From: Thermoplasmatota archaeon
Lineage (GTDB): Archaea; Thermoplasmatota; Thermoplasmata; UBA10834
Direction of reading: 5' to 3'
Length of the DNA stretch: 51,533 nt
Assembly: GCA_022848805.1 (NCBI GenBank)
Contig: JAJISI010000002.1
Coordinates: forward strand, 1 to 51,533
Shown here: positions 27,044-46,179 of the stretch, in pieces
How positions within the stretch are numbered: position 1 is the stretch's first letter
Layout of the letters: the number at the start of each line of letters is the position of its first letter
Translations under genes and position numbers: made by a program
The notes under the pieces: generated by a model
Told to the model about the DNA's origin: nothing
Databases searched by the model: none
The model's input: only the letters and a program-made list of their open reading frames with translations

Positions 27044-27532
27044 CTAATCATCTGAGACGAACTCTGATACGATCCTGGTCACTATGGACGGGATGGCGGC
27101 TGCGACCGGAGGGGTCATGCTCTCGCTGACGTTCACGATGTCCTCGGCCTCGATGGCGACGAAGAAGACCTCCTTCGGCATCTTCTCCGGGACGATCTTC
27201 CTTCCCATGGCAAGCGCGGTCGCGATGTTGATGCCGTGAGGCGTCGACCCGTGCACGGTCCTCTCGAACGCACTCTCTTCGAGCACATGGAACTCTCCTG
27301 GTCTCCCCTCGTCCGTCACGATGGCGTCCACGATGACCACTCTGTCGTAGCCCAGAACCATGTCCAACAGCTCCAGACCGCTCGCAGGCAGCTCCTCCAC
27401 ATCCACACTTTCGAGCCCGAGATCCCTGAGCTTCCTCGCTACGTGTATGCCTACACCATCGTCGGAGAGTATTGGGTTGCCGATACCCACAATTAATGTC
27501 CGGGGGCGGTGCAGTTCATCGGAGACGCTCAT
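27044..27532 (-). CDS. [NiFe] hydrogenase maturation endopeptidase
   Basis: LIVGIGNPILSDDGVGIHV..VVIVDA..HG signature of the HycI/HybD/FrhD family. Last gene of the mvh string. Confidence 0.85.
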   Translation of the reverse strand: MSVSDELHRPRTLIVGIGNPILSDDGVGIHVARKLRDLGLESVDVEELPASGLELLDMVLGYDRVVIVDAIVTDEGRPGEFHVLEESAFERTVHGSTPHGINIATALAMGRKIVPEKMPKEVFFVAIEAEDIVNVSESMTPPVAAAIPSIVTRIVSEFVSDD

Positions 27533-27603: not shown

Positions 27604-29118
27604 TCAGAAGTTTCTCACGGTCTTCAGCTTCGACCCGTCGGCGCGTCTCACGTTTATCTCAAGGGCCGGAGAGCCGTTCAGAGCGTGTGTTCCGCAGGAG
27701 TTGCATGGGTCATAGCATCGGAAAGCCATCTCGACCTTGTTCAGCAGTCCTTGGGAGACCTCGCCGTTCTGGATCAACGCCTTCGCCGCCTGCACGACAC
27801 TCGTGTTGATCGCAGCGTTGTTGTTCGTCGTCGCGACGATCATGTTGATCTTCGTGCATAGCCCGTCCTTGTCCGAGGCGTAGTGGTGTATCAGCGTACC
27901 TCTGGGAGCTTCGCATATGCCCACGCCTTCCGTCGGCTCCTTGAACTCGCCCCGTGTGTCATCGCTCGTGATGACGTCGTCAGTGGCCAGCTCGAGCATC
28001 CTCTCCGCAGCGTGCTGCAACTCGATCACCCTAGCCCAATGGAACGCGAGCGTGTGGTGGACGGGGCCTGTCACTCCCAGGTCCTTCACTGTCTTGGCCA
28101 GTACCTCGTACTCCGCCTGTGCGAGGGGAGTCGTGTAGCCCTCGCAGACGTTTATCCTGCCTAGGGGTCCGACCCTGTATATCCCGCTCGACGGGCCTGT
28201 GGTGAAGCCGTTCCAGCCAACGCTCTTCAGATATGGCATCTTCATGTATGACCACGGTTCGACGTGCTCGGCGATGATGTCGAGATACTCGCTCGGCTTG
28301 AACTTGACGACCTCCTTGCCAGCCTGGTCGACGACACGTACGTCCCCGTCGTAGAAGTTGCTCTTGTTGTCCTTGTCGACCATTCCCATGTAGTATGTCT
28401 CGAGGTAGTACGCGTCCTGGTTCAGTATGAGGCCGAGGTAGTCCTGGTTTGCCAGCACGACATCGTGGAACAGCTTGATCGTGAACTTGCCGAACTCGAT
28501 GCACGACCTTGCCATCTCCTCCATCTGAGCGCGCTCCTCCTCACTTATCTGCTTCGAGACGCCGCCTGGCAGGCCGAAGCACGGATGCGTGGCCCTCCCT
28601 CCGACGATCTCCTGCACCTTCTGACCGTACGAGCGGTGCTTGATGACCTCTCCGCCGATCTCGACGCCGACGGCATCCACCACTCCCAAGATATTCCTCT
28701 TGTTGGACGGCGCAGACGGTCCCAGCACGAAGTCGGGCGCTGCAAGCGCGTAGAAGTGTGCTATGTGGCTGTGGACGTACTGACCCATGTAGAATAAATC
28801 TCTCAGTTTTGTCGCCGTCTCTGTCGGGGTGGCGTCGAACACCGCGTCAAGCGTCTTCGTAGACGCTATGTGATGCGCGGCCGGGCAGACGCCACACAGC
28901 CTGTTGGTGATTATGGGCAGCTCCTGCACATGTCTGCCGATGCAGAACCTCTCGAAGCCTCTGAGCTCAGGGACCTGCCAGTAGGCATTGGCCACGTTCC
29001 CCTCGTCGTTCAGGAAGATCTCGATCTTGCCGTGTCCCTCGAGCCTTGTGATCGGGTCGATCGTGAGCTTCTTCTCGGTCGTCTTGGTCGTCGTATCGTT
29101 GATTATCGGTCCGGACAT
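27604..29118 (-). CDS. mvhA: [NiFe] hydrogenase large subunit, Mvh/group-3c-like
   Basis: RLEGHGKI, N-terminal RLCGVCPAAHH and C-terminal DPCNSCGTH Ni-Fe ligands, followed by a 26-residue cleavable extension (ALNGSP...TVRNF). Confidence 0.9.
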   Translation of the reverse strand: MSGPIINDTTTKTTEKKLTIDPITRLEGHGKIEIFLNDEGNVANAYWQVPELRGFERFCIGRHVQELPIITNRLCGVCPAAHHIASTKTLDAVFDATPTETATKLRDLFYMGQYVHSHIAHFYALAAPDFVLGPSAPSNKRNILGVVDAVGVEIGGEVIKHRSYGQKVQEIVGGRATHPCFGLPGGVSKQISEEERAQMEEMARSCIEFGKFTIKLFHDVVLANQDYLGLILNQDAYYLETYYMGMVDKDNKSNFYDGDVRVVDQAGKEVVKFKPSEYLDIIAEHVEPWSYMKMPYLKSVGWNGFTTGPSSGIYRVGPLGRINVCEGYTTPLAQAEYEVLAKTVKDLGVTGPVHHTLAFHWARVIELQHAAERMLELATDDVITSDDTRGEFKEPTEGVGICEAPRGTLIHHYASDKDGLCTKINMIVATTNNNAAINTSVVQAAKALIQNGEVSQGLLNKVEMAFRCYDPCNSCGTHALNGSPALEINVRRADGSKLKTVRNF

Positions 29119-29124: not shown

Positions 29125-30138
29125 TCACCCCTTCCTCTTGCGCTCCTTCACAGTCCTCTTGAGGAGGGACTTGGGGAGCGTGAAGGCGTAGAAAGTCCCG
29201 ATCGGGTCTTTCACCTGCATCATAAGTTCCATTATCTGCTCCTCACTTAACTTTGACTCCGAATCCGTGATGTTGAGGATCGAAGCTAGCGCGCTCAGCA
29301 TGCTACCTCCGTGGTCCATGACGGCCTTCGTCGGGCCCATGCAACCCCTACAGGGCATGTTGGCGACCGGGCACATCGCACCACAGCCCGCGCGCGTCGC
29401 GGGCCCTATGCATATTATGCCCTGGTCCAAGAGGCACTTCTTGGGATCCGCTTTGATCTCATACGCCTGATATATCCTGTCGATGGTTTTGCCCTTCTCG
29501 ACCCTCTCGCGGTCGCACTCGTCGCAGAGCGTCTTGTCAGATGCGATGACAGTGCCCTTCGGCGGCAGAGGCGCCCCCTCCTTCACGTGCTTCAAGAGAG
29601 CACCGACCGCCACCATGATGAGGTCGACCGTGGGCGGACAACCCGGCATGAAGTAATCGACATCCACGACCTCGTCCAGAGTCTTCACGGTGTCGTAGAA
29701 TTCCGGCAGGGTCAACTCTCCCTCCGGCACCATCACACTCGTCTGCGGCGTCACGAAATCGGGATTGTCGGTCGACTCGGTGTCCTTGTAGACTGTCTGG
29801 AAGACCTCCTCCTTGTTCGTCACGTTCGCGAGGCCGGGTGTTCCGCCGAAGCATGCGCACGATCCGAAGCTTATCATTATGACGGATTTCTCCCTCAGCA
29901 CCTTCGCGACGTGCTCGTTCTCGCTGTTCCTTATGGCGCCGTTGTAGAACGCTACCGTGATCGACTTGTCCGGCATCTGCTCCAATTCGTGTAGCTTGCC
30001 GTCGAAACCTATCGGCCAGAACACCACATCGGCTATGGCGTGCAAATCCAGTATCTTTGCGTCTATGTCCAGGAGCGCGACGTCGCATCCCCCGCAACCC
30101 GCGCCCCAGTACTGCGCGATCTTGATCTTATCTGCCAT
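29125..30138 (-). CDS. mvhG: [NiFe] hydrogenase small subunit, Mvh-like
   Basis: MADKIKIAQYWGAGCGGCDVALLDI..GSCACFGG..GCPP..CPVANMPCRGCMGP. The ATG at 30138 follows GGAGGTGA. The 132-codon upstream extension in the ORF track is Arg/Asp/Gly-rich and overlaps the better-supported ORF 30141-30524 in another frame. Confidence 0.88.
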   Translation of the reverse strand: MADKIKIAQYWGAGCGGCDVALLDIDAKILDLHAIADVVFWPIGFDGKLHELEQMPDKSITVAFYNGAIRNSENEHVAKVLREKSVIMISFGSCACFGGTPGLANVTNKEEVFQTVYKDTESTDNPDFVTPQTSVMVPEGELTLPEFYDTVKTLDEVVDVDYFMPGCPPTVDLIMVAVGALLKHVKEGAPLPPKGTVIASDKTLCDECDRERVEKGKTIDRIYQAYEIKADPKKCLLDQGIICIGPATRAGCGAMCPVANMPCRGCMGPTKAVMDHGGSMLSALASILNITDSESKLSEEQIMELMMQVKDPIGTFYAFTLPKSLLKRTVKERKRKG

Positions 30139-30140: not shown

Positions 30141-30524
30141 TCAGCTCACCTCCTTGGTCGAAGTGTCGCTCCTCGGGACCGCCTTGTACTGCGGCGACTG
30201 TCCAGTCATGCCGACCTGCTCGATCTGCCTCCATCGCTTGAGGGCGATGACGTGCTTGACTATCTCGGGCTTCGGCAGACCCGTCGCGTCGTGCAGCTCG
30301 TGCACGGTCTGTGGGCCGGCCTCCATCTGCAGCAGGAGCATGTTCCTCTCGAGCTCCACCGAGGCCGCCTTCTCCAGTATGAAGCTGTAGCGGGCGTCGG
30401 TGATCGTCTCGCCGAACACGTTCTCGGATGTCGTCAGCGACTCCTTCTTGCCAAGCAGCCACCGTATCCGCTCTCCCTCGAGCGTCCTGAGCGCCGCATG
30501 TATCTTTACCTCCCTCGGGTTCAT
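30141..30524 (-). CDS. Unassigned 127-aa protein with C-terminal winged-helix-like segment (free-standing copy of the domain fused to MvhD at 34023-34397)
   Basis: Tightly packed between mvhD (2-nt gap) and mvhG (2-nt gap). HTH-like QTVHELHDATGLPKPEIVKHVIALKRWRQIEQV. Hand alignment to the C-terminal half of ORF 34023-34850 gives 23 identities in 92 ungapped positions. Confidence 0.6.
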   Translation of the reverse strand: MNPREVKIHAALRTLEGERIRWLLGKKESLTTSENVFGETITDARYSFILEKAASVELERNMLLLQMEAGPQTVHELHDATGLPKPEIVKHVIALKRWRQIEQVGMTGQSPQYKAVPRSDTSTKEVS

Positions 30525-30526: not shown

Positions 30527-30988
30527 TCAGTCACCGCCTCCCATGGGGGATGGGCCGATCTCCTCTATCGTCTTAGTGAAGCTGACCATCGTCTTCTGGA
30601 ACTTCTCGCCCTCTCCGGCGGATATCCACTCGAGGCGCAGTCTGTCCGGATCGAACCCGAACTGCTGGATCAGCATCCTCAGCAACGCGATTCTCCTGCG
30701 CGTTCTGTAGTTGCCGCCTATGTAGTGGCAATCTGCCGGGTGGCAGCCTGCGACTAGGACGCCATCTACTCCCTTCTGGAACGCTCTCAGGACGAACTCA
30801 GGGTCCACTCTGGCCGAGCACATGACCCGTATCACTCTGAAGTGCGGCGGCATCTGTAGCCTGCTGACGCCTGCGAGGTCCGCGCCTGCGTACGAGCACC
30901 AGTTGCAGCAGAAGACGATTATCTTCGGTTCGAAGTCGTCGCCCTCGGCCTTCTCCTGGCTCTGGGCGTTCGGCGTTGCGCTGCTCAT
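30527..30988 (-). CDS. mvhD: MvhD (FlpD-family [2Fe-2S] electron-transfer subunit)
   Basis: [64 protein letters not shown]. Confidence 0.9.
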   Translation of the reverse strand: MSSATPNAQSQEKAEGDDFEPKIIVFCCNWCSYAGADLAGVSRLQMPPHFRVIRVMCSARVDPEFVLRAFQKGVDGVLVAGCHPADCHYIGGNYRTRRRIALLRMLIQQFGFDPDRLRLEWISAGEGEKFQKTMVSFTKTIEEIGPSPMGGGD

Positions 30989-33900
30989 TGCTTCACCTCC
31001 TGCTTGTCCGCGGTCTCCTCTAGCGCCGCATCTATCATCGCTACGATCTGCTCGTCACTGAAGCCCTTCTGGGTCAGCGCGCCTGAGGGGCAGGCGCCGA
31101 TGCACGCCCCGCAACCTTTGCAGAGGCCCACGTTGACATCCACGAGCTTCTTCCCCTCCTCTTTCTCGTTAGGGACGATCTCGAGCGCCTTGTACTCGCA
31201 CGTCGGGACACATAATCCGCAGCCGTCGCAGAACGTCTCGTCGAGGCTCGCTACGATGCCCTCCGCCTCGAGGGTCGTCTTCGACAGCACAGTCATCGCG
31301 CGCGAGACGGTGGCCAGGCCTTGGCCGATGCACTCGTCCAGGAACTTCGGCCCGTGCGCTAGACCTGCGACGTACACTCCCTCCGTGGCGAAGTCGACCG
31401 GCCTGAGTTTCATGTGCGCCTCGAGGAAGAATCCCTCCTTCATGATGGGTACCTTCAGCATCGGCGCGAGTTCCTCGGAGCCGTCACTCGGCCGCGTGCC
31501 CGTGGCGAGCACCAAGTTGTCGGGCGTGAGCACGACCTCCTTGTCAGTGTCCTCATCCGTCACGCGCACCTCTATCTTGCCGCCCTTGTCTTCGACCACC
31601 GGCTTGGCGTCGTCATCGAACCTTATGAAGGTCACGCCCTTCTCGGCAGCCTCCTTGTAGTACTTCTCGCGGAAGCCGTAGGTTCTGATGTCTCTGTAGA
31701 GAACGAATACCTTCGCGTCGGGGTCTTTTTCCTTGATCTTGATCGCCGCGGTCATCGTGCCCGCACAGCACACGCGCGAGCAGTTCGGGTGCCCGTCCTC
31801 TCGCGAGCCGACACATTGGATGAACACGTACGAGTCCCCTTTCGCCTCGCCCCTCTTGAGCTTGGCCTTGAACTCGAGCAGGGTCATCACGCCTGGGTTC
31901 TTGCCGTAGAGGTACTCGCCATCCGGTTTGTACTCCTGCCCTCCGACGGCTAATGTGACCGTGCCGTGCTCTATCTCCTCGCCGGACTCGAGCGTGGTCT
32001 TGAAGTTGCCGACATACCCGTCGATGTCCTTGATCGTCTTACCGATGTAGGTCGTTATATTCGGGTCGGATGTGACCTCCTTCGCGAGTGACTGGACGTA
32101 CTCCATCGGGTCGTCCCCGGACTGGAGGTAGTGCAGCTTGAGCAGGTTGCCGCCCAGCTCCTTCTCCTTCTCGACCAGGTGTACCTTCACACCCTGCTTC
32201 GCCAGCTCGAGAGCCGTCACCATGCCGACCGCGCCGCCACCGACCACTAACGCCTGCTGGTTGACATCGATTGTCAGGTTCTCCAGCGATTCCAGCAACC
32301 GGGACTTCGCGACTGCCATGCGCACGAGGTCTTTCGACTTCTTCGTCGCAGCGGTGGGCTCGTGCATGTGTATCCACGAACATTGGTCCCGTATGTTCGC
32401 CATCTCGAACAGGTACGGGTTGAGCCCAGCCTCCTTGATGGTGTTCTGGAACAGCGGTTCGTGCGTCCTGGGCGTGCAGCTCGCGACGACCACCCTGTTC
32501 AGGTTGTGCTCCTTCACCATCTGCTTGATCTTCTCCTGTGTGTCCTGTGAGCAGGTGTACAGGTTCTCCTCAGTGTACACCACATTCGGAAGGGACTTCG
32601 CGTACTCAGCCACCGACGGCACATTGACCACGCCGCCTATGTTGATCCCGCAGTGACACACGAACACGCCTATCCGTGGCTCCTGCTCCGAGACGTCTGT
32701 CTCGGCGGGATACTCCTTCTTCGTGACGAGCGTGTTCCTGGCCGAGGAGATCTCGGACGCGGCCTTCGCCGCCGCCCCACTCGCCTCCGCGACTGTCATC
32801 GGAATGTCCTTCGGAGACGAGAACGCGCCACTGACGAACACTCCTGGTCGGGATGTGCTGACCGGGGTGAACGCGCCAGTCTCGCAGAAACCGTCGTCGT
32901 TCAGGCTGAAATTCATGACCTTGCTGAGCGCCTCGGCATCCTCCGGAGGCCTCAGACCCACCGCCAGCACGACCAGCCCGAACTCCTCCTCCTTGGGCTC
33001 TCCCTTCTCCACGTAACTGACTATCAGATTCTTCGTTTCCGGGTCCTCGAACACAGACGCAACCCTGGAACGGACGAACTCGATGCCGTACTCGTCCTTG
33101 GCCCTGTTGTAGTACTCCTCGAACTCCTTCCCGAAGGTTCTCATATCCATGAAGAATATCTTGGGTTTGATGTTCCCGCCGTGCTCCTTGGCTATGATGG
33201 CCTCCTTGATGGAGTACATGCAGCAGACGCCGGAACAGTACTCGTTACCGACCTTCTCGTCCCTCGAGCCTACGCATTGAATGAACGCTATCTTCTCGGG
33301 TATGTCTCCGTCCGAAGGTCTCAAGACCGTGCCGAAGTGCGGTCCTGTGGCGCTGAGTATCCTCTCGAGCTCGATGCTCGAGACGACGTTCTGGTACACG
33401 CCGTACCCGTACTCCGCCTTCAACCGCGGGTCGAACTCGTCGAAGCCAGGCGATACGATGATCGAGCCGACCTTGATCTCGAAATCCTTCTCCTTCTGGT
33501 CGTAGTCGACCGCGTCGGCCTTGCACTCCTCCGCGCATATGCCGCACCCGATGCACTTGTCCTGGTCGATCGAGTATACGAGGGGCACTGCCTGCGGGTA
33601 CTTGACGAATATCGCCTTCCGCACCTTCGTGTTCTCGTTGTACTCGTCAGTCGTCTCTATCGGGCACTTCTGGGCGCAGCTGCCACAGCCCGTACACTTC
33701 GAAGCGTCCACTCTGAGCGCCCTCTGCTTGCCGGTCACCGTGAAGTTGCCTTCCTGTCCGTCGACTTTGACGATGTCCGCGTTCGTTATCAGCTCGATGT
33801 TGTGGTGTCTCCCGGTCGCGACGAGCTTCGGGGCCATGATGCACATGGCGCAGTCGTTCGTCGGGAAGGTCTTGTCGAGCTGGGCCATCGCGCCGCCTAT

Positions 33901-34026
33901 GCTCGGCTGCTTCTCGACCAGGTACACCTTGAATCCTGAGTCGGCCAGGTCCAGCGCCGACTGCAGGCCTGAGATGCCCCCTCCGACGACCATGACCGCT
34001 CCGGTCTTGTCACTAGCTGCCATCAC
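30985..34026 (-). CDS. Double-length HdrA-family flavoprotein (1013 aa; two thioredoxin-reductase-like FAD modules in tandem)
   Basis: Half A (res 1-~435): [20 protein letters not shown], inserted ferredoxin (CTGCGSCAQKCP, CIGCGICAEEC), [15 protein letters not shown]. Half B (res ~445-1013): [16 protein letters not shown] Cys domain, [24 protein letters not shown]-terminal 2x[4Fe-4S] (CDGCGLCVPTC, CKGCGACIGACP). Confidence 0.9.
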   Translation of the reverse strand: MMAASDKTGAVMVVGGGISGLQSALDLADSGFKVYLVEKQPSIGGAMAQLDKTFPTNDCAMCIMAPKLVATGRHHNIELITNADIVKVDGQEGNFTVTGKQRALRVDASKCTGCGSCAQKCPIETTDEYNENTKVRKAIFVKYPQAVPLVYSIDQDKCIGCGICAEECKADAVDYDQKEKDFEIKVGSIIVSPGFDEFDPRLKAEYGYGVYQNVVSSIELERILSATGPHFGTVLRPSDGDIPEKIAFIQCVGSRDEKVGNEYCSGVCCMYSIKEAIIAKEHGGNIKPKIFFMDMRTFGKEFEEYYNRAKDEYGIEFVRSRVASVFEDPETKNLIVSYVEKGEPKEEEFGLVVLAVGLRPPEDAEALSKVMNFSLNDDGFCETGAFTPVSTSRPGVFVSGAFSSPKDIPMTVAEASGAAAKAASEISSARNTLVTKKEYPAETDVSEQEPRIGVFVCHCGINIGGVVNVPSVAEYAKSLPNVVYTEENLYTCSQDTQEKIKQMVKEHNLNRVVVASCTPRTHEPLFQNTIKEAGLNPYLFEMANIRDQCSWIHMHEPTAATKKSKDLVRMAVAKSRLLESLENLTIDVNQQALVVGGGAVGMVTALELAKQGVKVHLVEKEKELGGNLLKLHYLQSGDDPMEYVQSLAKEVTSDPNITTYIGKTIKDIDGYVGNFKTTLESGEEIEHGTVTLAVGGQEYKPDGEYLYGKNPGVMTLLEFKAKLKRGEAKGDSYVFIQCVGSREDGHPNCSRVCCAGTMTAAIKIKEKDPDAKVFVLYRDIRTYGFREKYYKEAAEKGVTFIRFDDDAKPVVEDKGGKIEVRVTDEDTDKEVVLTPDNLVLATGTRPSDGSEELAPMLKVPIMKEGFFLEAHMKLRPVDFATEGVYVAGLAHGPKFLDECIGQGLATVSRAMTVLSKTTLEAEGIVASLDETFCDGCGLCVPTCEYKALEIVPNEKEEGKKLVDVNVGLCKGCGACIGACPSGALTQKGFSDEQIVAMIDAALEETADKQEVKQ
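32381..32504 (-). repeat. Near-identical nucleotide tract shared with 42590-42713 (paralogous double-HdrA genes)
   Basis: Hand alignment at a constant offset of 10209 nt gives 115 of 124 positions identical, including perfect runs of 29, 22 and 40 nt. Confidence 0.8.
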
Positions 34027-34850
34027 TGCTCACCCCCGATCTCGATGGTCTTGTAGAGCGGTGTGAACCCCTCCGGATGCTCCATCGCGATCATGCTGTT
34101 CTGTCTGAGTAGGACGATGTGCCTGAGGACCCTGTCCGTGGGCACCTCCATGACCATGCCCAGCTGTTTCACCGACATGGGTCTTATCCGTGCCAGCTCG
34201 AGTATAAGTGCCCTCTCGAACTCCTCCTCCGTGGCGACATCTATGATGCCGGTGAGTTTCTCAGGATCGACCGTGTCACCGTACGCATTCCCCTTGCTCA
34301 GGAGGTTGAACTCCTTCCCGACCAGGGCCTTCAGTCTGAATGTTTCGGAGGCGTCGTCAGCGGCTGCGACCTTCGCCTTCACCATATCATCCGTATGTAC
34401 CTTGCTCGGCCCCAGCTTCTGGATCTCTTCGGTGAATTCCGTCACGACCTTGGAGAACTTCTCTCCCTCGGACGCCGAGACCCATTCGAGCCTCAGCCGG
34501 CCCTCCTCGATCCCCGCTTCTCTGAGCAGCCTCTTCATCAGATTCACGCGCTTCTCCGTGTGGTAATTGCCCGTCATGTAGTGACAGTCGTTCAGGTGGC
34601 ATCCTCCAACGAGGATGCCGTCGGCACCGGCCTCGAGGACGTCGAGTACGATGTGCGGGCTCACCCTCGTGGAGCACATCACCCTGACGAGGCGGATGTT
34701 CGTCGGGTACTGGAACCTGCTGACGCCGCATAGATCGGCGCCTGCGTACGAGCACCAGTTGCACAGGAAGCCGACGATCTTCGGCTCCCATTCCTTGTCG
34801 GCCTCGGCCTCCTTCTTGCCGTGATGAGCGGTGTGATGCTTCTCCGTCAT
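34023..34850 (-). CDS. MvhD domain fused to the unassigned winged-helix-like domain
   Basis: N-terminal [61 protein letters not shown]. The C-terminal ~120 aa is homologous to ORF 30141-30524. The ATG at 34850 follows GGAGGAGGTG. The ORF-track start at 34889 would overlap the upstream gene. Confidence 0.85.
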   Translation of the reverse strand: MTEKHHTAHHGKKEAEADKEWEPKIVGFLCNWCSYAGADLCGVSRFQYPTNIRLVRVMCSTRVSPHIVLDVLEAGADGILVGGCHLNDCHYMTGNYHTEKRVNLMKRLLREAGIEEGRLRLEWVSASEGEKFSKVVTEFTEEIQKLGPSKVHTDDMVKAKVAAADDASETFRLKALVGKEFNLLSKGNAYGDTVDPEKLTGIIDVATEEEFERALILELARIRPMSVKQLGMVMEVPTDRVLRHIVLLRQNSMIAMEHPEGFTPLYKTIEIGGEQ

Positions 34851-34854
34851 GTCC

Positions 34855-36732
34855 TCACACCTCCTCCAAGGCCGCTTTGGCCTCCGCAAGCAGCTGCTGA
34901 TCCGTGTAGTGTGTCATGGTGATGGCATTCTCTGGGCAGGTGGCGCCGCAGCAACCACAGCCCTTGCACGCTGCGGCAATCACCTCGGTGACGCCCTCCT
35001 CGTTCTTCCTCAGGGCGCTGTACGGGCACGCTTCGACGCATGTCCCGCAGCCGCTGCATTTCGCCTCGTCGATTCTTGAAGTGAGCGCCTCGGCCTGGAC
35101 GAACCCGTTCGCAAGAGGTATCACTGCCCTCGAAGCAGCAGCAGCAGCTTGAGAGACGGCCTCCGTGATGTCGGCCGGTCCTCTGCAAGCCCCGCAGACG
35201 TACACTCCATCGGTCGCGAAGTCCACCGGTCTCAGTTTGACATGCGCCTCTTGGAAGAAGCCGTCTTGTCCGAGCGGGACCTTGAGCAGCTGCGATAGCG
35301 TGGCAGCGTCTGGCTGGGCCACGAGCGGAGTCGAGAGTATGACCAAGTCAACGGGCATCGTCCTCTCCATCTTCAGCGTCTCGTGGAAGTATCCGACTTC
35401 GAGCTTCCCGTCCTTGACGGATACCTTCGGAAGGTTGTCCGGCAGGTATCTGATGAACTTGACTCTCTTCTCCCTGGCTTTGTTGAACTCGAGCTCGTGT
35501 TCGACGCCGTACGCCATGACGTCCCTGTTGAACACCGTGACCTCGACACCACTGGACGGAGCAGCTGCCTCCTCACCGCCCTCATCCTCGTCACGCCGGC
35601 CTCTGCCCCGCCTTCTGCGCCTTCTTTCAGACCCCTCTTCCTCAGCCTTCTTCTCGGCGGTGGGTTCTTCCACGACCTCTCCCGTCTCTGCTGCCTTCTC
35701 CTCGGTCACGCCGAGCATGTTATCGCGGTTCTCGGCAATGTTCATCGCGCTCTTGATCGCGACGTTGCAGCAGATTCTGGAGCAGTACGAGACCGTCTGT
35801 CCTCTCGCACCAACGCACTGTATGAAAGCGACGCTTTTCAGCTTGGGCAGCTCCTTCTTGTTGCAGAGTTCCTCGAACTCTGTGGATGTTATGACGTTCG
35901 GGTGTTCCTTGTATCCGAACAGCCCCTCAGGTACCAGCGGCACCGCACCCGTGGCCACGATGATGGTGCCCACCTTGACTTCCTTCGCCTCAGCCCCATC
36001 CCCTCCTATGGAGACATCATAGTTGCCTATGAACCCCTCCACCGATGCGACGTGCGAGTTGAGGTGCTGGGTGATGTTCTTGTGTGCGTTCACCTTGTCG
36101 ATGAGAGGCTTGATCGTCTCGTTGGCGCTCTTGGTGGTCATCATGAGGCCGTGCAGGTTTTTCACGAACCCTCCGAGCTCCTGGTCCTTCTCGACGAGGT
36201 GCACCGGGAATTTCATGTTGGCGAGCGACAGCGCTGCCGTCATCCCGGACACGCCGCCTCCGACGACGAGCGCGGTGGGCGTGACATCGACCTTCGTCTC
36301 CTCCTGGGGTTCGAGGAACCGGGCTCTCGCAATACCCATCCTGACCAGGTCCTTCGCCTTCTGGGTCGCCTTCTCCTTCTCCTTCATGTGGACCCACGAG
36401 CAGTGCTCACGGATGTTGACAAAAGTGAACATGTACTTGTTCACGCCAGCAGCCTCGCATGTCCGCTGGAAGAGAGGTGCGTGTGTCCTGGGCGTGCAGC
36501 TCGACACGACGACTCTGTCGAGGTTGTGCTCCTTGATGCTGTCCTTGATGTTGTTGAGGCCGTCCTCGGCACATGTGTAGAGGTTGTCCGTCGCGTAGGC
36601 AACGTCCGGGAGGGTTGACGCATACTCGGTCACGGCCTTCACATCGACAAAGCCGCCTATGTTGGATCCACAGTGGCAGATGAATACTCCAATCCGTGGC
36701 TTCTCCTTCTCGGTGCTTGTGTTCTCGGGCAT
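34855..36732 (-). CDS. Short HdrA-family flavoprotein (half-B type: Cys domain + FAD module + C-terminal ferredoxin, no inserted ferredoxin) with a charged low-complexity insert
   Basis: PRIGVFICHCGSNIGG, VVGGGVSG, FIQCVGARG..CSRICC, CSGCGTCVEACP, CKGCGCCGATCP. It lacks DKTFPTxDC and the inserted CxxCxxCxxxC pair. The insert is EEKAAETGEVVEEPTAEKKAEEEGSERRRRRRGRGRRDEDEGGEE. Confidence 0.88.
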   Translation of the reverse strand: MPENTSTEKEKPRIGVFICHCGSNIGGFVDVKAVTEYASTLPDVAYATDNLYTCAEDGLNNIKDSIKEHNLDRVVVSSCTPRTHAPLFQRTCEAAGVNKYMFTFVNIREHCSWVHMKEKEKATQKAKDLVRMGIARARFLEPQEETKVDVTPTALVVGGGVSGMTAALSLANMKFPVHLVEKDQELGGFVKNLHGLMMTTKSANETIKPLIDKVNAHKNITQHLNSHVASVEGFIGNYDVSIGGDGAEAKEVKVGTIIVATGAVPLVPEGLFGYKEHPNVITSTEFEELCNKKELPKLKSVAFIQCVGARGQTVSYCSRICCNVAIKSAMNIAENRDNMLGVTEEKAAETGEVVEEPTAEKKAEEEGSERRRRRRGRGRRDEDEGGEEAAAPSSGVEVTVFNRDVMAYGVEHELEFNKAREKRVKFIRYLPDNLPKVSVKDGKLEVGYFHETLKMERTMPVDLVILSTPLVAQPDAATLSQLLKVPLGQDGFFQEAHVKLRPVDFATDGVYVCGACRGPADITEAVSQAAAAASRAVIPLANGFVQAEALTSRIDEAKCSGCGTCVEACPYSALRKNEEGVTEVIAAACKGCGCCGATCPENAITMTHYTDQQLLAEAKAALEEV

Positions 36733-36738
36733 GTCTGT

Positions 36739-39444
36739 TCACTCCCCTCCTGAATTGGCGAGGATCTCCGCTGCCTTGGCAGCCGCGCTCGATCCCTGGG
36801 CAACGGATTCCGGGATGTCGGCCGGTCCTGCGCAATATCCCGCGAGGTAGATTCCGGGCAGGCCACTCTTGCCGAAGCCCAGGATGCTATCGGGAGACTC
36901 GAAGAAGCCGAATTCCGTGAGCTTCAGCCCGAGCTTCTTCGCCAGTTCGACAGTGTCCTCCCTGGGGACGAGCGTCGTCGCGAGCACGACCGCGTCGAAC
37001 TCCTCTGATTGCTGCTTCCCCCCCACGTCGAAGACGACCACTGGATTGTTGGTCTCCGCGTTCTCCTGTACGGTTGCATCCGAGTTGATGTAGCTGACTC
37101 CGTAATCGCTCTTAGCCCTTTCAACGTACTCGTTGAACCCTTTCGCGCAGGCCCTCATGTCCTTGTAGAATATCGTGGAGTTGATGTCTTCGTAGTGTTC
37201 CCTGGCGAGCATAGCCTCTTTCGTGGCATGCATGCAGCACACTGAACAGCAATAGGGATGTCCCACCTGCGGGTTTCTCGATCCGACGCACTGGATGAAC
37301 GCCAGTTTCTTCGGATGCTCCCCATCGGATCGCCTCACGATGTGTCCTCCAGTGGGTCCTGAGGCGTTGATCATACGTTCATATTCCATCGCCGTGTAGA
37401 CGTTTGGGTACTTCTTGTAGCCGTACTCTGAGGCAGATGTCGGGTCCCACATATCGAAGCCAGTGGCGACTATGACCGCCGCCGGATTCAGCGTTACGAC
37501 CTGATCCTTCATGTTGTAGTCGATGGCGTCGGGGCCGCACGCAGTGGCGCACGCCTCGCACTGGGAGCACGGTCCGCAGTTCACGCATCGAGCCGCCTCC
37601 TTGAGCGCCTCCTCCTTGGTGAACACCTTCTCGACCTCCTCGAAAGAGGTCTTGCGCTTATCATCCGGAATGTGTTGCCTGAGGACACGCTCGCTCTTCG
37701 AGATATCTCCATCCATTCTCGCCTTGATGTCTTCGAGCGTGATCACATGCTCATTCTTCTCCTCTGGTTCCGGCTCGATGCTCTCACCGTTCAACGACTT
37801 CTCGATGTATCGAGCGGCTTTATTGCCCGCCGCGAACGCCTCGACAGCCGACGCGGGTCCTGAAACGGCATCTCCGCCTGCGAAGACGCCTGGGATGTTG
37901 GTGCTTAGGTTGCCGGGGTTGACCTCCAGGGTCTTCCACTTCGTGACCGCAAGGTCCTTCGAGCCAAGAGCGTCCAGGTCCGGCGCCTGGCTCACTGCTG
38001 GGATGACCGTGTCGACTTCGACGGTGAATTCCGACCCATCGACAGGCACTGGACGCGGACGGCCTGACTGGTCCGGCTCGCCGAGTTTCATCCTTATGCA
38101 CTCGATGGCCGTAATCTTGCCGTCCTTGCCCTGGATCTTGACCGGTGATGCCAAGAACTCGAACTTGACTCCTTCCTCTTCCGCTCCTTTGATCTCAGCT
38201 GCGATCGCGGGCATCTCGTCCTTCGTCCGGCGGTATATCACAGTCACATCGGAGCCCATGCGCAAGGCCGTTCTCGCGGCGTCCATCGCGGCGTTTCCCC
38301 CGCCTATGACTGCCACCTTCTTGCCGATCTTGACCGTCTCCTTGTCTGCGACCCTGTGAAGGAAGTCCACGCCATGGACAACCCCTTCCAGGTCCTCGCC
38401 CGGGACGCCCAGCTTGAGGCTCTTATGAGCCCCTATGGCCAGGAAGACGGCATCGTACTCTTTCTTCAGGTCCTCGAGCGCCAGATCCTTGCCGACGGTC
38501 TTGCCGTACTCGATCTCGATCCCGTGTGCCAACAGATGGTCCACCTCGGCGGTCAGCACATCCTTGGGAAGACGGTAGTCGGGGATGCCCCACCAGAGCA
38601 TCCCGCCGGGTTTCGATGTGGCCTCGAACATCTTAACCTTGAATCCTTTGAGCGCCAGACGGTAGGCTGCTGCCAGGCCGGCCGGGCCAGCTCCCACAAC
38701 CGCAACCTTCTCCTTCCGCTCCTCCTCGATTGGGGTCGGCACGTCCTCGCCCTGCTCGCGGACGTAGTCCCCGACGAAAGCCTTCAATCCCGCGATGGCT
38801 ACCGGTTCGTCGACGTCCGTTCTGTTGCAGCCCTCCTCGCAGGGGTGGTGGCATATGCGTCCACACACGGAGGGGAGCGGGATGGTCCTTCGTATCAGGT
38901 CCACCGCTTCCTTGAACTTCTCGGCTCGTATGAGTGCGACGTATCCCTGCGCGCTCAGGCCAGCCGGGCATTTGTCGGAACACGGCGCCACTCCTGCCCT
39001 GTCGATCGTTGCAGCTCTTGGCACTGATTGAAGGAACGGCACGTAGATCGCCGGCCTCTCCCTCATGCCCATATCGAATTCGTTCGGAAGGCTTACCGGG
39101 CACACCTTGAAACAGTCGCCACAGCCATTGCACTTCTCCTCGTCGACGAACCTGGCCTTCTTGAGCACATCAACCTTGAAATCACCGGCTTTCCCAGAGA
39201 TGTCCTTCACCTCTGAGTATGTCATCACATTGATACTGGGATGCGCGTAGCAGTCGGCCATCTTCGGCGCCAGGATGCAGATCGAGCAATCGTTCGTCGG
39301 GAAAGTCTTGTCCAACTGTGCCATTCTTCCGCCTATGCTGGGCAGTTTCTCGACAAGATCGACCTCGATCCCCCTCTCGGCTAGGTCCAAAGCAGCCTGT
39401 ATTCCGGCAATTCCGCCTCCGATTACCATTACGGATTTCGTCAA
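36739..39444 (-). CDS. HdrA-family flavoprotein (half-A type) with a nested GltD/NfnB-like NAD(P)H:FAD oxidoreductase module
   Basis: TTG start after GGGGGT. HdrA parts: [32 protein letters not shown] ... [15 protein letters not shown] ... GIYLAGYCAGPADIP. Inserted part (res ~150-620): CPAGLSAQGYVALIRAEKFKEAV..PSVCGRICHHPCEEGC, VAVVGAGPAGLAAA, VAVIGGGNAAMDAA, GVFAGGDA. Confidence 0.88.
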   Translation of the reverse strand: MTKSVMVIGGGIAGIQAALDLAERGIEVDLVEKLPSIGGRMAQLDKTFPTNDCSICILAPKMADCYAHPSINVMTYSEVKDISGKAGDFKVDVLKKARFVDEEKCNGCGDCFKVCPVSLPNEFDMGMRERPAIYVPFLQSVPRAATIDRAGVAPCSDKCPAGLSAQGYVALIRAEKFKEAVDLIRRTIPLPSVCGRICHHPCEEGCNRTDVDEPVAIAGLKAFVGDYVREQGEDVPTPIEEERKEKVAVVGAGPAGLAAAYRLALKGFKVKMFEATSKPGGMLWWGIPDYRLPKDVLTAEVDHLLAHGIEIEYGKTVGKDLALEDLKKEYDAVFLAIGAHKSLKLGVPGEDLEGVVHGVDFLHRVADKETVKIGKKVAVIGGGNAAMDAARTALRMGSDVTVIYRRTKDEMPAIAAEIKGAEEEGVKFEFLASPVKIQGKDGKITAIECIRMKLGEPDQSGRPRPVPVDGSEFTVEVDTVIPAVSQAPDLDALGSKDLAVTKWKTLEVNPGNLSTNIPGVFAGGDAVSGPASAVEAFAAGNKAARYIEKSLNGESIEPEPEEKNEHVITLEDIKARMDGDISKSERVLRQHIPDDKRKTSFEEVEKVFTKEEALKEAARCVNCGPCSQCEACATACGPDAIDYNMKDQVVTLNPAAVIVATGFDMWDPTSASEYGYKKYPNVYTAMEYERMINASGPTGGHIVRRSDGEHPKKLAFIQCVGSRNPQVGHPYCCSVCCMHATKEAMLAREHYEDINSTIFYKDMRACAKGFNEYVERAKSDYGVSYINSDATVQENAETNNPVVVFDVGGKQQSEEFDAVVLATTLVPREDTVELAKKLGLKLTEFGFFESPDSILGFGKSGLPGIYLAGYCAGPADIPESVAQGSSAAAKAAEILANSGGE

Positions 39445-39484
39445 TCAAAAACCCCCTTCAAGTCGCATGTTCATCACCGCGTTG

Positions 39485-39604: not shown

Positions 39605-41206
39605 TCATTCCAACGCCTCCGCAATCGCAACACTCAGGTCCTTGATCTTAATGTCCACCTGCTCCTTCGGGACTCCCTCGAGTTTGTTGTCTCGTGTGCA
39701 AGCCAGATGGATCAGGCATTTGTAGCAGCCCGTGACCAAACAATCCGCCCCCGTCTTCTTCGCTTCCTTCAGCCTCTCCACCTGTATCTTTCTCGCGGTC
39801 TCGTCGCAGGTCGTCCACGCGCTCACGCCGCAGCAGAGCGCCTTGTCCCTGGTGTTCTCCATCTCGATTATCTCCGTACCCTCTGAGGCTTCGAGTGCGG
39901 CCCTCGGCGGGTCGTATATGTCGAGGTGCCGGCCAAGCCTGCATGAGTCCTGGAAGGTCAGCTTCCTGGCGCTTGGCTTGAGCTTCAACTTCCCCTCCTT
40001 CACCAGGTCGTCCACGAGCTCTGAGACATGCGTCAGCTCGAACTCGAAATCTCCCATGAAGTCCTGGTAGTCCATGTCGAAGGTCCTCATGCACTCGGGG
40101 CACGAGAACACAACCTTCTTCGCGCCAGAGGCCTTGATCAGGTCGACATTCTTCTTCATCAGCTTCTGGAGGCCCGCCTCGTCCCCCGTCCAGTTGAGGT
40201 CGTGCCCGCAGCAGACCTCGTCGTTGCTCACCACCGGGACAATTCCTGCCTTGTTCATTATCTTCACGACCGCCTGGGGTATACCTGACAGGTTGAGTTC
40301 CCTGTCGTTGAACAGCGCGTCGAAGTATGAGACGCAGCCCGTGAAGTAGAACACCTCGCCCTTCTCTGCGACCTTCAGCTCCTGTGTCAGCCACCCGAGC
40401 CTGTCCTGTTTGAAGTCGCCGTATGCTTGGACCCGCATGAGCCCCTGTATGATCCCACCCTGACTGCACGTCGGTGTGCTGTCCATCTTGACGGCCTCGG
40501 CCCGAAGACCCCTGATGAACCCAGAGTAGTCGACCTCGTACGGACACATGGAGTTGCACTGCTCGCATGTGATGCAGGTCCATATGTCCCCGCCCGTCGT
40601 GATCGCCTCCGTCTGCCCCTCCGTCGCCTTGAGGACTATCGTTCTCGGAGCGAAGTCCGGGTCATGCTTCGCGACAGGACACACGGTCGTGCACTTGCCG
40701 CATTCGACGCAGTCGAAGGCGCCGGTGTCCTCGATGAGTTGATCGACCTTCCGTTTCAAGCTGGCCGGATCGATGCTACCAGCTTTGGGCTGCTTCGGGA
40801 TGGGGTTGGGTCCGAGCTTCCTTATCTGCTCGGTAAACTCCTTCATCGTTGCGGCGAACTTCTGGCCTTCGGACGCGGATATCCACTCGAGGCGCATCCT
40901 GTCCCTGCCTATTCCGACGATGTCGAGCAGCTCCTGGGTCGTCTTCATCCGCTTCTCCGCTTCGACGTTGCCCGATATGTAGTGGCAGTCACCGATATGG
41001 CAGCCTGCGACCAGGACGCCGTCGGCTCCCAGCTCGAGCGCTTTGAGTATGAAGTACGGTTCCACCCGGCCGGAGCACATGACGCGTATGATGCGCGCGT
41101 TGGGCGGGTACTGCATCCTGCTGACGCCCGCGAGGTCAGCACCTGCGTACGAGCACCAGTTGCAGCAGAAGGCGACGATGTTCGGCTCGAACTCGTCCCC
41201 GCTCAT
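39605..41206 (-). CDS. MvhD-HdrC-HdrB triple-domain fusion (soluble HdrD-like CCG reductase with N-terminal MvhD)
   Basis: Res 1-~135 MvhD ([48 protein letters not shown]). Then 2x[4Fe-4S] ([24 protein letters not shown]). Then two CCG domains ([17 protein letters not shown] and [17 protein letters not shown]). Confidence 0.88.
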
Positions 41207-44200: not shown

Positions 44201-44238
44201 ATGACCAGGACGGCACCTACCCGCTCGTTCTTTGTCAT
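41203..44238 (-). CDS. Double-length HdrA-family flavoprotein (1011 aa), paralogue of 30985-34026
   Basis: Same half-A/half-B order: [58 protein letters not shown]. Then [61 protein letters not shown]. Confidence 0.9.
42590..42713 (-). repeat. Near-identical nucleotide tract shared with 32381-32504
   Basis: See the 32381-32504 entry. The tract encodes the conserved [26 protein letters not shown] segment of half B. Confidence 0.8.
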
Positions 44239-44240
44239 GT

Positions 44241-44684
44241 CTACGCACCCTCCTGAGCGATCGGTCCTAGCTGCTCGAGGTCAGACACCATTTCCCTGAT
44301 GACTTTGGCGAACTTCTGCCCTTCAGAACCAGCGATCCACTCGATTCTGAAGCGTTCCGGCTCTATGCCCGTCTCCTCTAAGAACTCCTCCAGGAAGTCG
44401 CCTCTCGTCGCGGTCTTCTCGTTGCCGTTGATGTAATGGCAGTCTGAGGGATGGCACCCAGCGACTATCACCCCGTCCGCTCCGAGCGTGAATGCCTTGA
44501 GGACGAACGCAGGGTCCACCCTCCCCGAACACATGACTCTCACGATCCTCACGTTCGGCGGATACTGCATCCTCGTGGTGCCCGCGAGGTCCGCGCCTGC
44601 GTACGAGCACCAGTTGCAGCAGAACGCGACTATTTTGGGCTCGTAGCTCGGCTGGTCCTGCTTGGCTTCTGACTGCTCTGCCAC
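44241..44684 (-). CDS. mvhD: MvhD (FlpD-family) subunit
   Basis: [61 protein letters not shown]. Confidence 0.9.
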   Translation of the reverse strand: MAEQSEAKQDQPSYEPKIVAFCCNWCSYAGADLAGTTRMQYPPNVRIVRVMCSGRVDPAFVLKAFTLGADGVIVAGCHPSDCHYINGNEKTATRGDFLEEFLEETGIEPERFRIEWIAGSEGQKFAKVIREMVSDLEQLGPIAQEGA

Positions 44685-44686
44685 GG

Positions 44687-45604: not shown

Positions 45605-46179
45605 GCCTTCACCTCCTCCTCGATGCCGATGAGCTTGTCGTATCCGACCGCGTGGACGAGCACGTTGATTTCCTTTATCACCTTCGCGTACTCCGCCCCT
45701 CGCGAGGGAACGTCCTCGAGATCTAGCTCCTTCCGGATCTTCTCGACCTCCAGGTCAGGTTTCACGCTCTGGCCGTACTTCACCAGGTTGGCAGCCGCCA
45801 CCTTTATGAACGGCGGTATGACCCCTTCCCTGATAGCGATGTGCCTAAGCGCGATCATGACCTCCGCAGGGTTGATATCGGCTGGACAGTGCTCGTAGCA
45901 TCTGTAGCATGTTGCGCACACCCATTGTGTTCCGAGTGTGAGCGTCTTGAGGCCGAACTGGCAGTACTTGATGATGCTCCTGGTCTTGTAGTCTATCTTG
46001 AGGCTGATCGGGCACACACCTGTACAGTTTCCGCACTGCAGGCATGTCATGACGTCCTTGCCGCCGTACTTGACGATCTCCTTCGCGAAACCAGGCTCCA
46101 ACTGTGACTCGTCTATGACCTTGTCCTCGACCAGCTTCTCGCGCAGGCCGCTCAGGAAGACCTTCTCCACCTCCCCCAT
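45601..46179 (-). CDS. hdrC: Heterodisulfide reductase subunit C
   Basis: CLQCGNCTGVCP and CATCYRCYEHCP ferredoxin motifs in a 192-aa protein. ATGA overlap with hdrB. Confidence 0.92.
   Translation of the reverse strand: MGEVEKVFLSGLREKLVEDKVIDESQLEPGFAKEIVKYGGKDVMTCLQCGNCTGVCPISLKIDYKTRSIIKYCQFGLKTLTLGTQWVCATCYRCYEHCPADINPAEVMIALRHIAIREGVIPPFIKVAAANLVKYGQSVKPDLEVEKIRKELDLEDVPSRGAEYAKVIKEINVLVHAVGYDKLIGIEEEVKA

What the first reader, a model, noticed from the sequence alone, without database searches (positions are those of the whole stretch)
30141..30524. Unassigned 127-aa gene wedged between mvhD and mvhG
Classical mvh operons go mvhD-mvhG-mvhA(-mvhB). Here a 127-aa ORF is inserted with 2-nt gaps on both sides, so it is almost certainly co-translated with the hydrogenase subunits.

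Its C-terminal half looks like a winged helix (QTVHELHDATGLPKPEIVKHVIALKRWRQIEQVGMTGQSPQYKAV), and I do not recognise the N-terminal half. No polyferredoxin mvhB is present.

A DNA-binding-type fold embedded as a stoichiometric operon member of a redox complex suggests one of two roles. It could be an adaptor or scaffold for MvhD, or an autoregulator sensing complex assembly.
Basis: partly seen in the sequence, partly recalled or inferred. Interest (0 to 1): 0.62.

Follow-up and report, generated by a model that had tools for sequence, protein, structure and literature searches.

The report
Detached winged-helix docking piece of MvhD
The small gene between mvhD and mvhG is real and conserved, and is most likely a split-off copy of a helical plus winged-helix module that is normally fused to the end of the iron-sulfur adaptor MvhD, so probably a structural piece of a hydrogenase/heterodisulfide-reductase-type complex and not a gene regulator.

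Summary
A 127-aa ORF (30141-30524, minus strand) lies 2 nt after mvhD and 2 nt before mvhG, and each start has its own Shine-Dalgarno site. About 45 species-level Thermoplasmata genomes keep this layout. dN/dS is 0.04-0.19, like the neighbouring subunits.

The C-terminal half is a winged helix (AF2 pLDDT >90; Foldseek finds ArsR/SmtB and Z-alpha folds).

A profile search gave 284 relatives. Of 82 hits longer than 140 aa, 71 carry the MvhD (FlpD) domain. Free-standing copies form their own clade and always lie in HdrA/MvhD operons in Thermoplasmata, Asgard archaea and others.

A 2026 cryo-EM preprint reports that the MvhD-like BamF of class II benzoyl-CoA reductase uses a C-terminal winged helix to dock on a neighbouring subunit.

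The protein has no cysteine, misses the ArsR cut-offs and lacks the ArsR dimerisation helix. It is basic, however, so DNA binding is not excluded.

Best reading (about 0.6): a non-catalytic docking subunit. It is a new variant of a recently described kind and of moderate interest.

The parts
30141..30524 (-). ORF127: free-standing 'MvhD C-terminal extension' module (linker helices plus winged helix), Cys-free, 127 aa
30348..30524 (-). N-terminal half (aa 1-59): three short helices, a loop and the start of a long helix. It carries the family-invariant R19, L23, G25, K26, A53, E57 and E59. Confidence is low when modelled alone.
   Evidence: Invariant columns in alignment A1. pLDDT is 53-74 alone, against 85-94 for the equivalent region in the fused paralogue.
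30177..30347 (-). Winged helix-turn-helix (aa 60-116)
   Evidence: AF2 pLDDT 92-98. Foldseek finds SmtB, CzrA and Z-alpha. HTH_IclR and HTH_5 are sub-threshold.
30146..30153 (-). Shine-Dalgarno GGAGGTGA for mvhG, lying inside the codons of the ORF127 tail (..K-E-V-S*)
   Evidence: The motif is kept in nearly all orthologous loci. It is kept even in L033 and L035, where ORF127 stops earlier.
30531..30542 (-). Shine-Dalgarno-like GGGAGGCGGTGA for ORF127, inside the last codons of mvhD
   Evidence: GAGGTGGTGA in most orthologues
30527..30988 (-). mvhD (153 aa). It ends exactly where the extension begins in fused MvhD proteins.
   Evidence: Pfam FlpD E 5e-55; alignments A3 and A4
29125..30138 (-). 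mvhG, [NiFe]-hydrogenase small subunit (337 aa from the ATG at 30138)
27604..29118 (-). mvhA, [NiFe]-hydrogenase large subunit
27044..27532 (-). HycI-type hydrogenase maturation protease
30985..34026 (-). Tandem ('double') HdrA, 1013 aa. Its pairwise distances track those of ORF127 best.
   Evidence: exploratory mirror-tree r 0.86, partial 0.68
34023..34889 (-). MvhD fused to the same module (Rosetta-stone partner). The module is 34026-34382. The real start is probably the ATG at 34850 (275 aa).
   Evidence: AF2 pLDDT 84.9, pTM 0.81. The N-terminal half matches MvhD 5ODC_D with TM 0.93.
34855..39444 (-). Split HdrA pair of the preceding module: a 901-aa HdrA half with a GltD-like insert (36739-39444) and a 625-aa HdrA (34855-36732)
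39605..48353 (-). Upstream Hdr genes: HdrA (46179-48353), HdrC (45601-46179), HdrB (44687-45604), MvhD (44241-44684), double HdrA (41203-44238) and an MvhD-HdrC-HdrB fusion (39605-41206)

Best explanation
ORF127 is a non-catalytic accessory subunit of the double-HdrA/MvhD/MvhAG module. It is a gene-fission product of the roughly 115-residue extension (linker helices plus winged helix) that many MvhD/FlpD adaptors carry at their C-terminus.

Inferred mechanism: the N-terminal helices, with the R-x-R-W-L-L-G-K and G-N-V-F-G motifs, pack onto MvhD as they do in cis in the fused proteins. The winged helix then offers a protein-docking surface. That surface would fix MvhD, and so its [2Fe-2S] relay, against a neighbouring module, either the tandem HdrA or the MvhAG hydrogenase. 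This is how the winged helix of BamF is reported to dock on BamI in class II benzoyl-CoA reductase.

Shown here: homology to the MvhD extension, the fold, conserved operon position with tight translational signals, and purifying selection.

Inferred: physical binding, the identity of the partner, and the absence of DNA binding.
For: 1. Rosetta stone in the same window: ORF127 aa 19-116 align with aa 185-282 of the 288-aa MvhD paralogue (26% identity, E 8e-12). MvhD followed by ORF127 is collinear with the fused form.
2. A profile of the module finds 284 relatives among 1.84 billion representatives. Of 82 hits longer than 140 aa, 71 have Pfam FlpD; in the listed matches the module lies towards the C-terminal end. 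One is an HdrA-MvhD-module fusion of 810 aa.
3. Synteny HdrA - MvhD-module - 2xHdrA - MvhD - ORF127 - MvhG - MvhA - HycI holds in about 45 species-level Thermoplasmata genomes.
4. Junctions have 1-2 nt gaps and each gene has a strong SD, which suggests subunit-level expression.
5. dN/dS is 0.04-0.19. Median identity is 71%, similar to HdrA625 (72%) and MvhD-module (74%), and above HycI (65.5%).
6. Free-standing relatives form their own clade (20 representatives, SH-aLRT 85). They lie inside Hdr operons in Asgard archaea and other lineages.
7. In AF2 models the linker helices are poorly defined alone (pLDDT 53-71). They are confident in the fused protein (85-94, pTM 0.81).
8. Precedent: bioRxiv 10.64898/2026.04.10.717634 states that BamF, an MvhD homologue more than 100 aa longer than MvhD, has a winged helix-turn-helix that interfaces with BamI.
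9. Bacterial MvhD-module fusions occur in Bam-like settings. One sits in a context of AOR, an Fe-S protein and a double HdrA (L070). One has a Sec19 in the C-x-W-U motif, near NuoE/F-like genes (L068).
10. ORF127 has no cysteine and there is no conserved Cys or His cluster in the free-standing family, so it has no cofactor or sensor site.
Against: No direct evidence of protein-protein contact was obtained; the tools fold single chains only.

The BamF sequence and model were not available, so homology to BamF itself is untested.

The free-standing family is basic (pI about 9-10; winged helix net +1 to +4), which also fits nucleic-acid binding.

Databases label many members 'ArsR family regulator'.

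One Thermoplasmata MAG (L060) keeps the whole cluster, yet mvhD is followed directly by mvhG. The protein is therefore dispensable or replaceable in some lineages.

Immediate neighbours differ between lineages (MvhG, HdrC/HdrB, HdrA), so the docking partner is not defined.
Confidence: 0.6

Rival explanations
1. ORF127 is a bona fide ArsR/SmtB-like DNA-binding transcription factor that autoregulates the hdr-mvh operon.
For: It has a winged-helix fold whose best structural matches are SmtB, CzrA, SqrR and HlyU. The A1 profile matches M. smegmatis SmtB 8QKF at E 5e-4. The proteins are basic. Source annotations read 'ArsR family'. A 24-nt palindrome, CATTGTACTGTAGTACATACAATG (39485-39508), lies downstream of a BRE/TATA-like element in the 39445-39604 intergenic region.
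Against: HTH_5 scores 17.2 bits against a cut-off of 22, and NCBIfam HTH_metalloreg 13.5 against 55. There is no helix after the wing, so no alpha5 dimer interface. There is no Cys or metal-site residue. The whole module, including the non-HTH N-terminal half, is homologous to a domain covalently attached to an Fe-S subunit in most relatives. The gene sits mid-operon with a strong SD, implying expression at subunit level. The palindrome is not conserved in the L001 and L004 promoters.
Confidence: 0.15
2. ORF127 is an assembly or maturation chaperone. It binds MvhD or MvhG transiently, for example during Fe-S or [NiFe] maturation or subunit docking, and is not part of the mature complex.
For: It lies between mvhD and mvhG, in an operon that ends with the HycI protease and is flanked by hypE and hypD. 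It is absent from one otherwise identical cluster (L060). It evolves somewhat faster than the catalytic subunits.
Against: In most relatives the module is permanently fused to MvhD, so it stays in the complex there. Free-standing relatives also occur in Hdr operons with no hydrogenase.
Confidence: 0.1
3. ORF127 has two roles. It is docked on the complex, and it is released according to redox or assembly state to bind DNA or RNA.
For: The free-standing branch is more basic than the fused copies of the same genomes (pI 9-10 against about 5 for the fused-module segments of the window and L001, and 8.1 for L004). Detachment from MvhD would make release possible.
Against: There is no sensor residue, no conserved operator and no direct data. 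The reading needs two functions where one is enough.
Confidence: 0.08

Closest known systems
BamF, the MvhD-like adaptor of class II benzoyl-CoA reductase (Geobacter metallireducens BamBCDEFGHI; cryo-EM preprint bioRxiv 10.64898/2026.04.10.717634)
   Same: BamF is an MvhD-type [2Fe-2S] adaptor next to a tandem ('fused dimer') HdrA. It carries an extra C-terminal region of more than 100 aa that contains a winged helix-turn-helix used for protein-protein docking on BamI. Module-bearing MvhD proteins found here include a Sec19 C-x-W-U form and one in an AOR plus double-HdrA context.
   Different: In BamF the module is fused; here it is a separate gene. The neighbouring input module here is a [NiFe] hydrogenase (MvhAG), not BamGHI.
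The fused MvhD-module proteins of Bathyarchaeia, Thermoplasmata, Asgard archaea and Desulfobacterota-like bacteria (about 250-290 aa; JGI label 'F420-reducing hydrogenase delta subunit/predicted transcriptional regulator')
   Same: The module is the same along its full length, with the same conserved motifs, and it sits in the same type of operon with double HdrA.
   Different: ORF127 is detached, more basic, and belongs to a separate clade of free-standing forms.
Canonical MvhD of MvhADG-HdrABC (PDB 5ODC, 7BKB, 8RVU)
   Same: The MvhD upstream of ORF127 and the N-terminal half of the fused paralogue match it closely (E 6e-53; TM 0.93).
   Different: Canonical MvhD is about 140 aa and has no extension. 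Classical operons have no gene between mvhD and mvhG.
ArsR/SmtB winged-helix repressors (e.g. SmtB 8QKF/1SMT, CzrA, SqrR)
   Same: They share the three-helix plus beta-hairpin winged-helix core.
   Different: Family scores are below cut-off. ORF127 has no alpha5 dimerisation helix and no metal or thiol sensing residues, and its N-terminal half is unrelated to them.
DsrD of dissimilatory sulfite reductase operons (recalled from the literature, not tested here)
   Same: DsrD is a small winged-helix protein encoded inside a redox-enzyme operon. It was long suspected of binding DNA and was later reported to act on the enzyme itself.
   Different: No sequence or fold match to DsrD appeared among the 50 Foldseek hits listed. 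It is an analogy only.

Membership tests
MvhD C-terminal extension module (linker helices plus wHTH; BamF-type adaptors) | Sequence homology over the whole module to the extension of FlpD/MvhD proteins | tested here: met
   BLASTP E 8e-12 to the in-window fusion. Joint alignment A1 has 13 invariant columns. The profile finds fused proteins at E down to 1e-22, and 71 of 82 longer hits carry FlpD.
MvhD C-terminal extension module (linker helices plus wHTH; BamF-type adaptors) | Winged helix-turn-helix fold in the C-terminal part | tested here: met
   AF2 pLDDT >90 for aa 60-115; Foldseek wHTH matches
MvhD C-terminal extension module (linker helices plus wHTH; BamF-type adaptors) | Covalent fusion to an MvhD domain | tested here: not met
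   ORF127 is a separate gene 2 nt after the mvhD stop, in a different frame. It is therefore a split variant.
MvhD C-terminal extension module (linker helices plus wHTH; BamF-type adaptors) | Genomic association with HdrA (usually tandem HdrA) and MvhD genes | tested here: met
MvhD C-terminal extension module (linker helices plus wHTH; BamF-type adaptors) | Homology to G. metallireducens BamF itself | not testable with these tools
   BamF is absent from the PDB copy and was not retrieved by searches. There is only indirect support: a Sec19 MvhD-module protein in L068 and an AOR/double-HdrA context in L070.
MvhD C-terminal extension module (linker helices plus wHTH; BamF-type adaptors) | The wHTH makes a protein-protein interface inside the complex | not testable with these tools
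   Only single-chain prediction is available. The fused paralogue folds compactly (pTM 0.81).
ArsR/SmtB transcriptional repressors | Profile score above the curated cut-off (Pfam HTH_5, NCBIfam HTH_metalloreg) | tested here: not met
   17.2 bits against 22; 13.5 against 55
ArsR/SmtB transcriptional repressors | alpha1-alpha5 topology with a C-terminal alpha5 dimerisation helix after the wing | tested here: not met
   The AF2 model ends with the beta-hairpin (aa 101-115) and a disordered 12-aa tail. This test rests on a model.
ArsR/SmtB transcriptional repressors | Metal or thiol sensing residues (Cys/His sites) | tested here: not met
   ORF127 has no Cys, and there is no conserved Cys or His cluster in A1; only H91 is invariant.
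ArsR/SmtB transcriptional repressors | Sequence-specific DNA binding to an operator | not testable with these tools
   No palindrome is shared by three orthologous promoters. That is not a test of binding.
MvhB polyferredoxin / other Mvh redox subunits | CxxCxxCxxxCP Fe-S motifs | tested here: not met
   No cysteine in the sequence

The most novel reading that the evidence does not exclude
The detached, strongly basic Thermoplasmata branch of the module has become a moonlighting factor. It would be held on MvhD/double-HdrA/MvhAG while the complex is assembled or in one redox state, and released to bind DNA or RNA otherwise. Expression of an electron-bifurcating hydrogenase complex would then be coupled directly to its own assembly or redox state.
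Probability: 0.08. Interest if true: 0.8.

Novelty: new variant of a known kind. Interest (0 to 1): 0.45.

Why it matters
Large multi-module Hdr/Mvh-type electron-bifurcating complexes are widespread in uncultured sediment archaea (Thermoplasmata, Bathyarchaeia, Asgard), and none has been purified.

If this module is a docking element, its fused and split copies show which MvhD adaptor connects to which module. That gives concrete constraints for modelling or reconstituting these complexes.

It would also correct a systematic mis-annotation. Hundreds of these proteins are labelled 'ArsR family transcriptional regulator' or 'predicted transcriptional regulator'.

The family has no Pfam model of its own.

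Tried and rejected
1. I tried to obtain BamF for a direct homology test. The PDB sequence search with the fused paralogue found only canonical MvhD chains. Two large protein searches returned unnamed metagenomic proteins. Papers on BamF held no sequence. The test remains undone.

2. I looked for operator-like palindromes. One occurs in the window's 39445-39604 region, but it is not conserved in L001 or L004. I rejected it as evidence either way.

3. I laid a run labelled metatranscriptomic (X10) on the region. One 564-nt contig crosses the mvhD/ORF127 junction. The library label is odd (ChIP-Seq) and DNA carry-over is possible, so I treat it as weak.

4. A mirror-tree analysis over 23 taxa found that ORF127 distances track the double HdrA best (r 0.86, partial 0.68) and MvhG next. 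This is exploratory only, because shared phylogeny dominates.

5. I considered that ORF127 might be hydrogenase-specific, a bridge between MvhD and MvhG. I rejected this as a general rule, because free-standing relatives lie between HdrCB pairs or after HdrA with no hydrogenase gene beside them.

6. Many 'free' or 'partial' hits in the representative library are truncated gene calls, for example P0121, P0158 and the Sec-interrupted genes. The free/fused counts are therefore only approximate.

Full report
**Observation.**
- mvhD (30527-30988; Pfam FlpD, E 5e-55) ends 2 nt upstream.
- mvhG (ATG at 30138; Oxidored_q6) starts 2 nt downstream.
- mvhA and a HycI-type protease follow.
- Both starts have Shine-Dalgarno sites embedded in the preceding gene. 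GGGAGGCGGTGA lies in the last codons of mvhD. GGAGGTGA lies in the ..KEVS* tail of ORF127.

**It is a real gene.**
- There are 135 close homologues of 120-130 aa at 65-91% identity, from Thermoplasmata/Thermoplasmatota MAGs.
- A scan of one genome per species returned 58 loci. About 45 of them are Thermoplasmata-type genomes that carry a free-standing homologue.
- A tblastn synteny map shows the order HdrA(625) - MvhD-extension(275-288) - double HdrA(about 1010) - MvhD - ORF127 - MvhG - MvhA - HycI in essentially all of them.
- The junction geometry (1-2 nt gaps) and both SD motifs are conserved.
- The conserved C-terminal 'EVS/EVN' appears to be a nucleotide-level constraint. In L033 and L035 the ORF stops earlier, yet the SD is still kept.
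- dN/dS is 0.04-0.19, in the range of the neighbouring subunits.
- Median identity to the window's copy is 71%. For comparison: MvhD 82, MvhG 84, MvhA 86, double HdrA 81, HdrA625 72, MvhD-extension 74, HycI 65.5.

**What it is.**
- Pfam and NCBIfam give only sub-threshold HTH hits: HTH_IclR 21 against 22 bits, HTH_5 17.2 against 22, HTH_metalloreg 13.5 against 55.
- The AF2 model (pLDDT 78) has a very confident winged helix at aa 60-115. Helices at aa 1-45 are poorly defined.
- Foldseek matches ArsR/SmtB and Z-alpha domains at E about 1e-3.
- The decisive result is that ORF127 aa 19-116 align with aa 185-282 of the 288-aa MvhD paralogue at 34023-34889 (26% identity, E 8e-12).
Invariant positions are R19, L23, G25, K26, A53, E57, E59, R60, V74, L77, H91, P111 and Y113.
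- MvhD(153) ends at ..IGPSP, just where the fused proteins continue. MvhD plus ORF127 is therefore collinear with the fusion.

**How widespread the module is.**
- A profile of the module against 1.84 billion representatives gave 284 hits at E<1e-3 and 136 at E<1e-10.
- Of the 82 listed hits longer than 140 aa, 71 contain Pfam FlpD, and in the listed matches the module lies towards their C-terminal end. One of them is an HdrA-MvhD-module protein of 810 aa.
- A search with a fused alignment shows the 258-aa fused form is very abundant; one hit is named Bathyarchaeota by its source. JGI labels it 'hydrogenase delta subunit/predicted transcriptional regulator'.
- In a quick ML tree of the modules, ORF127 falls in an all-free-standing clade of 20 representatives (SH-aLRT 85; inner clade 97), next to fused forms.
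- Many other 'free' entries in that tree are truncated gene calls, so the free/fused counts are approximate.

**Contexts of free-standing relatives elsewhere.**
- In an Asgard lineage (Frey-/Jordarchaeia label) the 114-aa protein lies in HdrA - MvhD-module - 2xHdrA - MvhD - HdrC - HdrB - [module] - HdrC - HdrB, with no hydrogenase.
- In L065 and L066 it ends an HdrA - MvhD - HdrA - HdrA operon.
- In L047 it is ATGA-coupled to a downstream HdrA.
- Bathyarchaeia have the same overall cluster, but HdrC-HdrB sit between mvhD and mvhG where Thermoplasmata have ORF127.
- One Thermoplasmata MAG (L060) has mvhD followed by mvhG after 1 nt and no ORF127.
- The module therefore tracks HdrA/MvhD systems in general and not the hydrogenase specifically. 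In the window, MvhD occurs four times: alone, fused to HdrC-HdrB, fused to the module, and followed by the free module.

**Mechanism.**
- The fused paralogue folds as a compact two-domain protein (pLDDT 84.9, pTM 0.81). Its linker helices are confident (85-94), whereas the same region in isolated ORF127 is not (53-71). This fits helices that are ordered by packing on MvhD, but the model coordinates could not be inspected.
- Its N-terminal half superposes on MvhD of 5ODC (TM 0.93). No PDB entry holds MvhD plus a wHTH.
- A 2026 preprint on the cryo-EM structure of class II benzoyl-CoA reductase describes BamF as an MvhD-homologous adaptor more than 100 aa longer than known MvhDs. It reports a winged helix-turn-helix that interfaces with BamI, next to a fused-dimer HdrA (BamE).
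- I could not obtain the BamF sequence. Bacterial members of the module family do include a selenoprotein with Sec19 in the C-x-W-U motif near NuoE/F-like genes (L068), another with Sec17 (L067), and one in an AOR - Fe-S - double HdrA - MvhD-module context (L070). These match what is described for BamF.
- I infer that ORF127 binds MvhD through its N-terminal helices and uses the winged helix as a docking surface toward the double HdrA or MvhAG.
- An exploratory mirror-tree analysis places ORF127 with the 2xHdrA/MvhD/MvhG/MvhA block. Its highest correlation is with the double HdrA.

**The regulator alternative.**
- For it: the wHTH fold, basic charge (pI about 9-10; wHTH net +1 to +4), database labels, and a palindrome (39485-39508) downstream of a BRE/TATA-like AACGAAACACATAAGA (39543-39558).
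- Against it: family cut-offs are not met; there is no alpha5 helix; there are no Cys or metal ligands; and the non-HTH half is conserved together with a domain that is covalently part of an Fe-S subunit.
- Also against it: the gene sits mid-operon with a strong SD, and the palindrome is absent from the L001 and L004 promoters, where only the BRE/TATA-like element is shared.
- DNA binding cannot be excluded without experiments.

**Comparison, novelty and earlier notes.**
- The kind of element, an MvhD-type adaptor with a wHTH docking extension, has just been described structurally for BamF.
- The detached, separately translated form conserved across Thermoplasmata and present in Asgard and other archaea is, as far as the searched literature shows, undescribed. 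It is routinely annotated as an ArsR regulator or hypothetical protein.
- I rate it a new variant of a known kind, of moderate interest.
- Earlier notes of this scan on other genomes reach the same reading. I had found the fusion and the BamF lead before consulting them. They are not independent evidence.

Noticed in passing
window 30146-30153, 30531-30542, 34026-34045: The C-terminal tails of three consecutive genes encode the Shine-Dalgarno site of the next gene. These are MvhD ..GGGD*, ORF127 ..KEVS* and MvhD-module ..IGGEQ*. Their amino-acid conservation is therefore probably partly a nucleotide-level constraint.
   Followed up: partly
L060:9347-10832: A Thermoplasmata MAG (DBS2-1.bin12) has the same cluster, including the fused MvhD-module. 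Its mvhD stop is followed after 1 nt by the mvhG ATG, so ORF127 is naturally absent.
   Followed up: partly
L055:9347-11155 (also L052-L054, L056, L059): In Bathyarchaeia the slot between mvhD and mvhG holds HdrC (169 aa) and HdrB (286 aa), not the module.
   Followed up: partly
L063/L064:6001-6345: In Asgard (Frey-/Jordarchaeia-labelled) loci the free-standing module sits between two HdrC-HdrB pairs, downstream of HdrA - MvhD-module - double HdrA - MvhD. No hydrogenase genes are nearby. In L063 the fused MvhD-module is called as two genes (168 + 72 aa).
   Followed up: no
L068:6908-7687; L067:2364-3137: MvhD-module genes with an in-frame TGA in the C-x-W-C motif (C-T-W-U at residue 19; C-I-W-U at residue 17). 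They are probably selenoproteins whose database gene calls start downstream of the TGA. In L068, GltD-like and NuoE/NuoF/NuoG-like genes follow.
   Followed up: partly
L070:1003-11632: A cluster of AOR (638 aa), an Fe-S protein, double HdrA (973 aa), MvhD-module (263 aa), a GltD-like protein, a 306-aa protein, HdrC and HdrB. It resembles class II benzoyl-CoA reductase but has a GltD-type module in place of the BamGHI-type module.
   Followed up: no
window 39485-39508 and 39543-39558: A 24-nt palindrome, CATTGTACTGTAGTACATACAATG, lies downstream of a BRE/TATA-like AACGAAACACATAAGA, in front of the 901-aa HdrA/GltD gene. The TATA-like element is shared with L001 and L004; the palindrome is not.
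   Followed up: partly
window 36739-39444: A 901-aa protein combines an HdrA-like N-terminal part with a GltD-like (Fer4_20 + Pyr_redox_2) NAD(P)H-type module. In L001 and L004 the corresponding gene is only about 432 aa, without the insert.
   Followed up: no
window 34023-34889: The 288-aa frame starts at a TTG that overlaps the upstream HdrA. Orthologues are about 277 aa, and alignments begin near residues 13-34. The ATG at 34850 (275 aa) is the more likely start.
   Followed up: partly
window 2670-5369: An 899-aa TPR-repeat protein has an N-terminal Mrr-type restriction-endonuclease domain (Mrr_cat, E 4e-10), next to a second 626-aa TPR protein.
   Followed up: no
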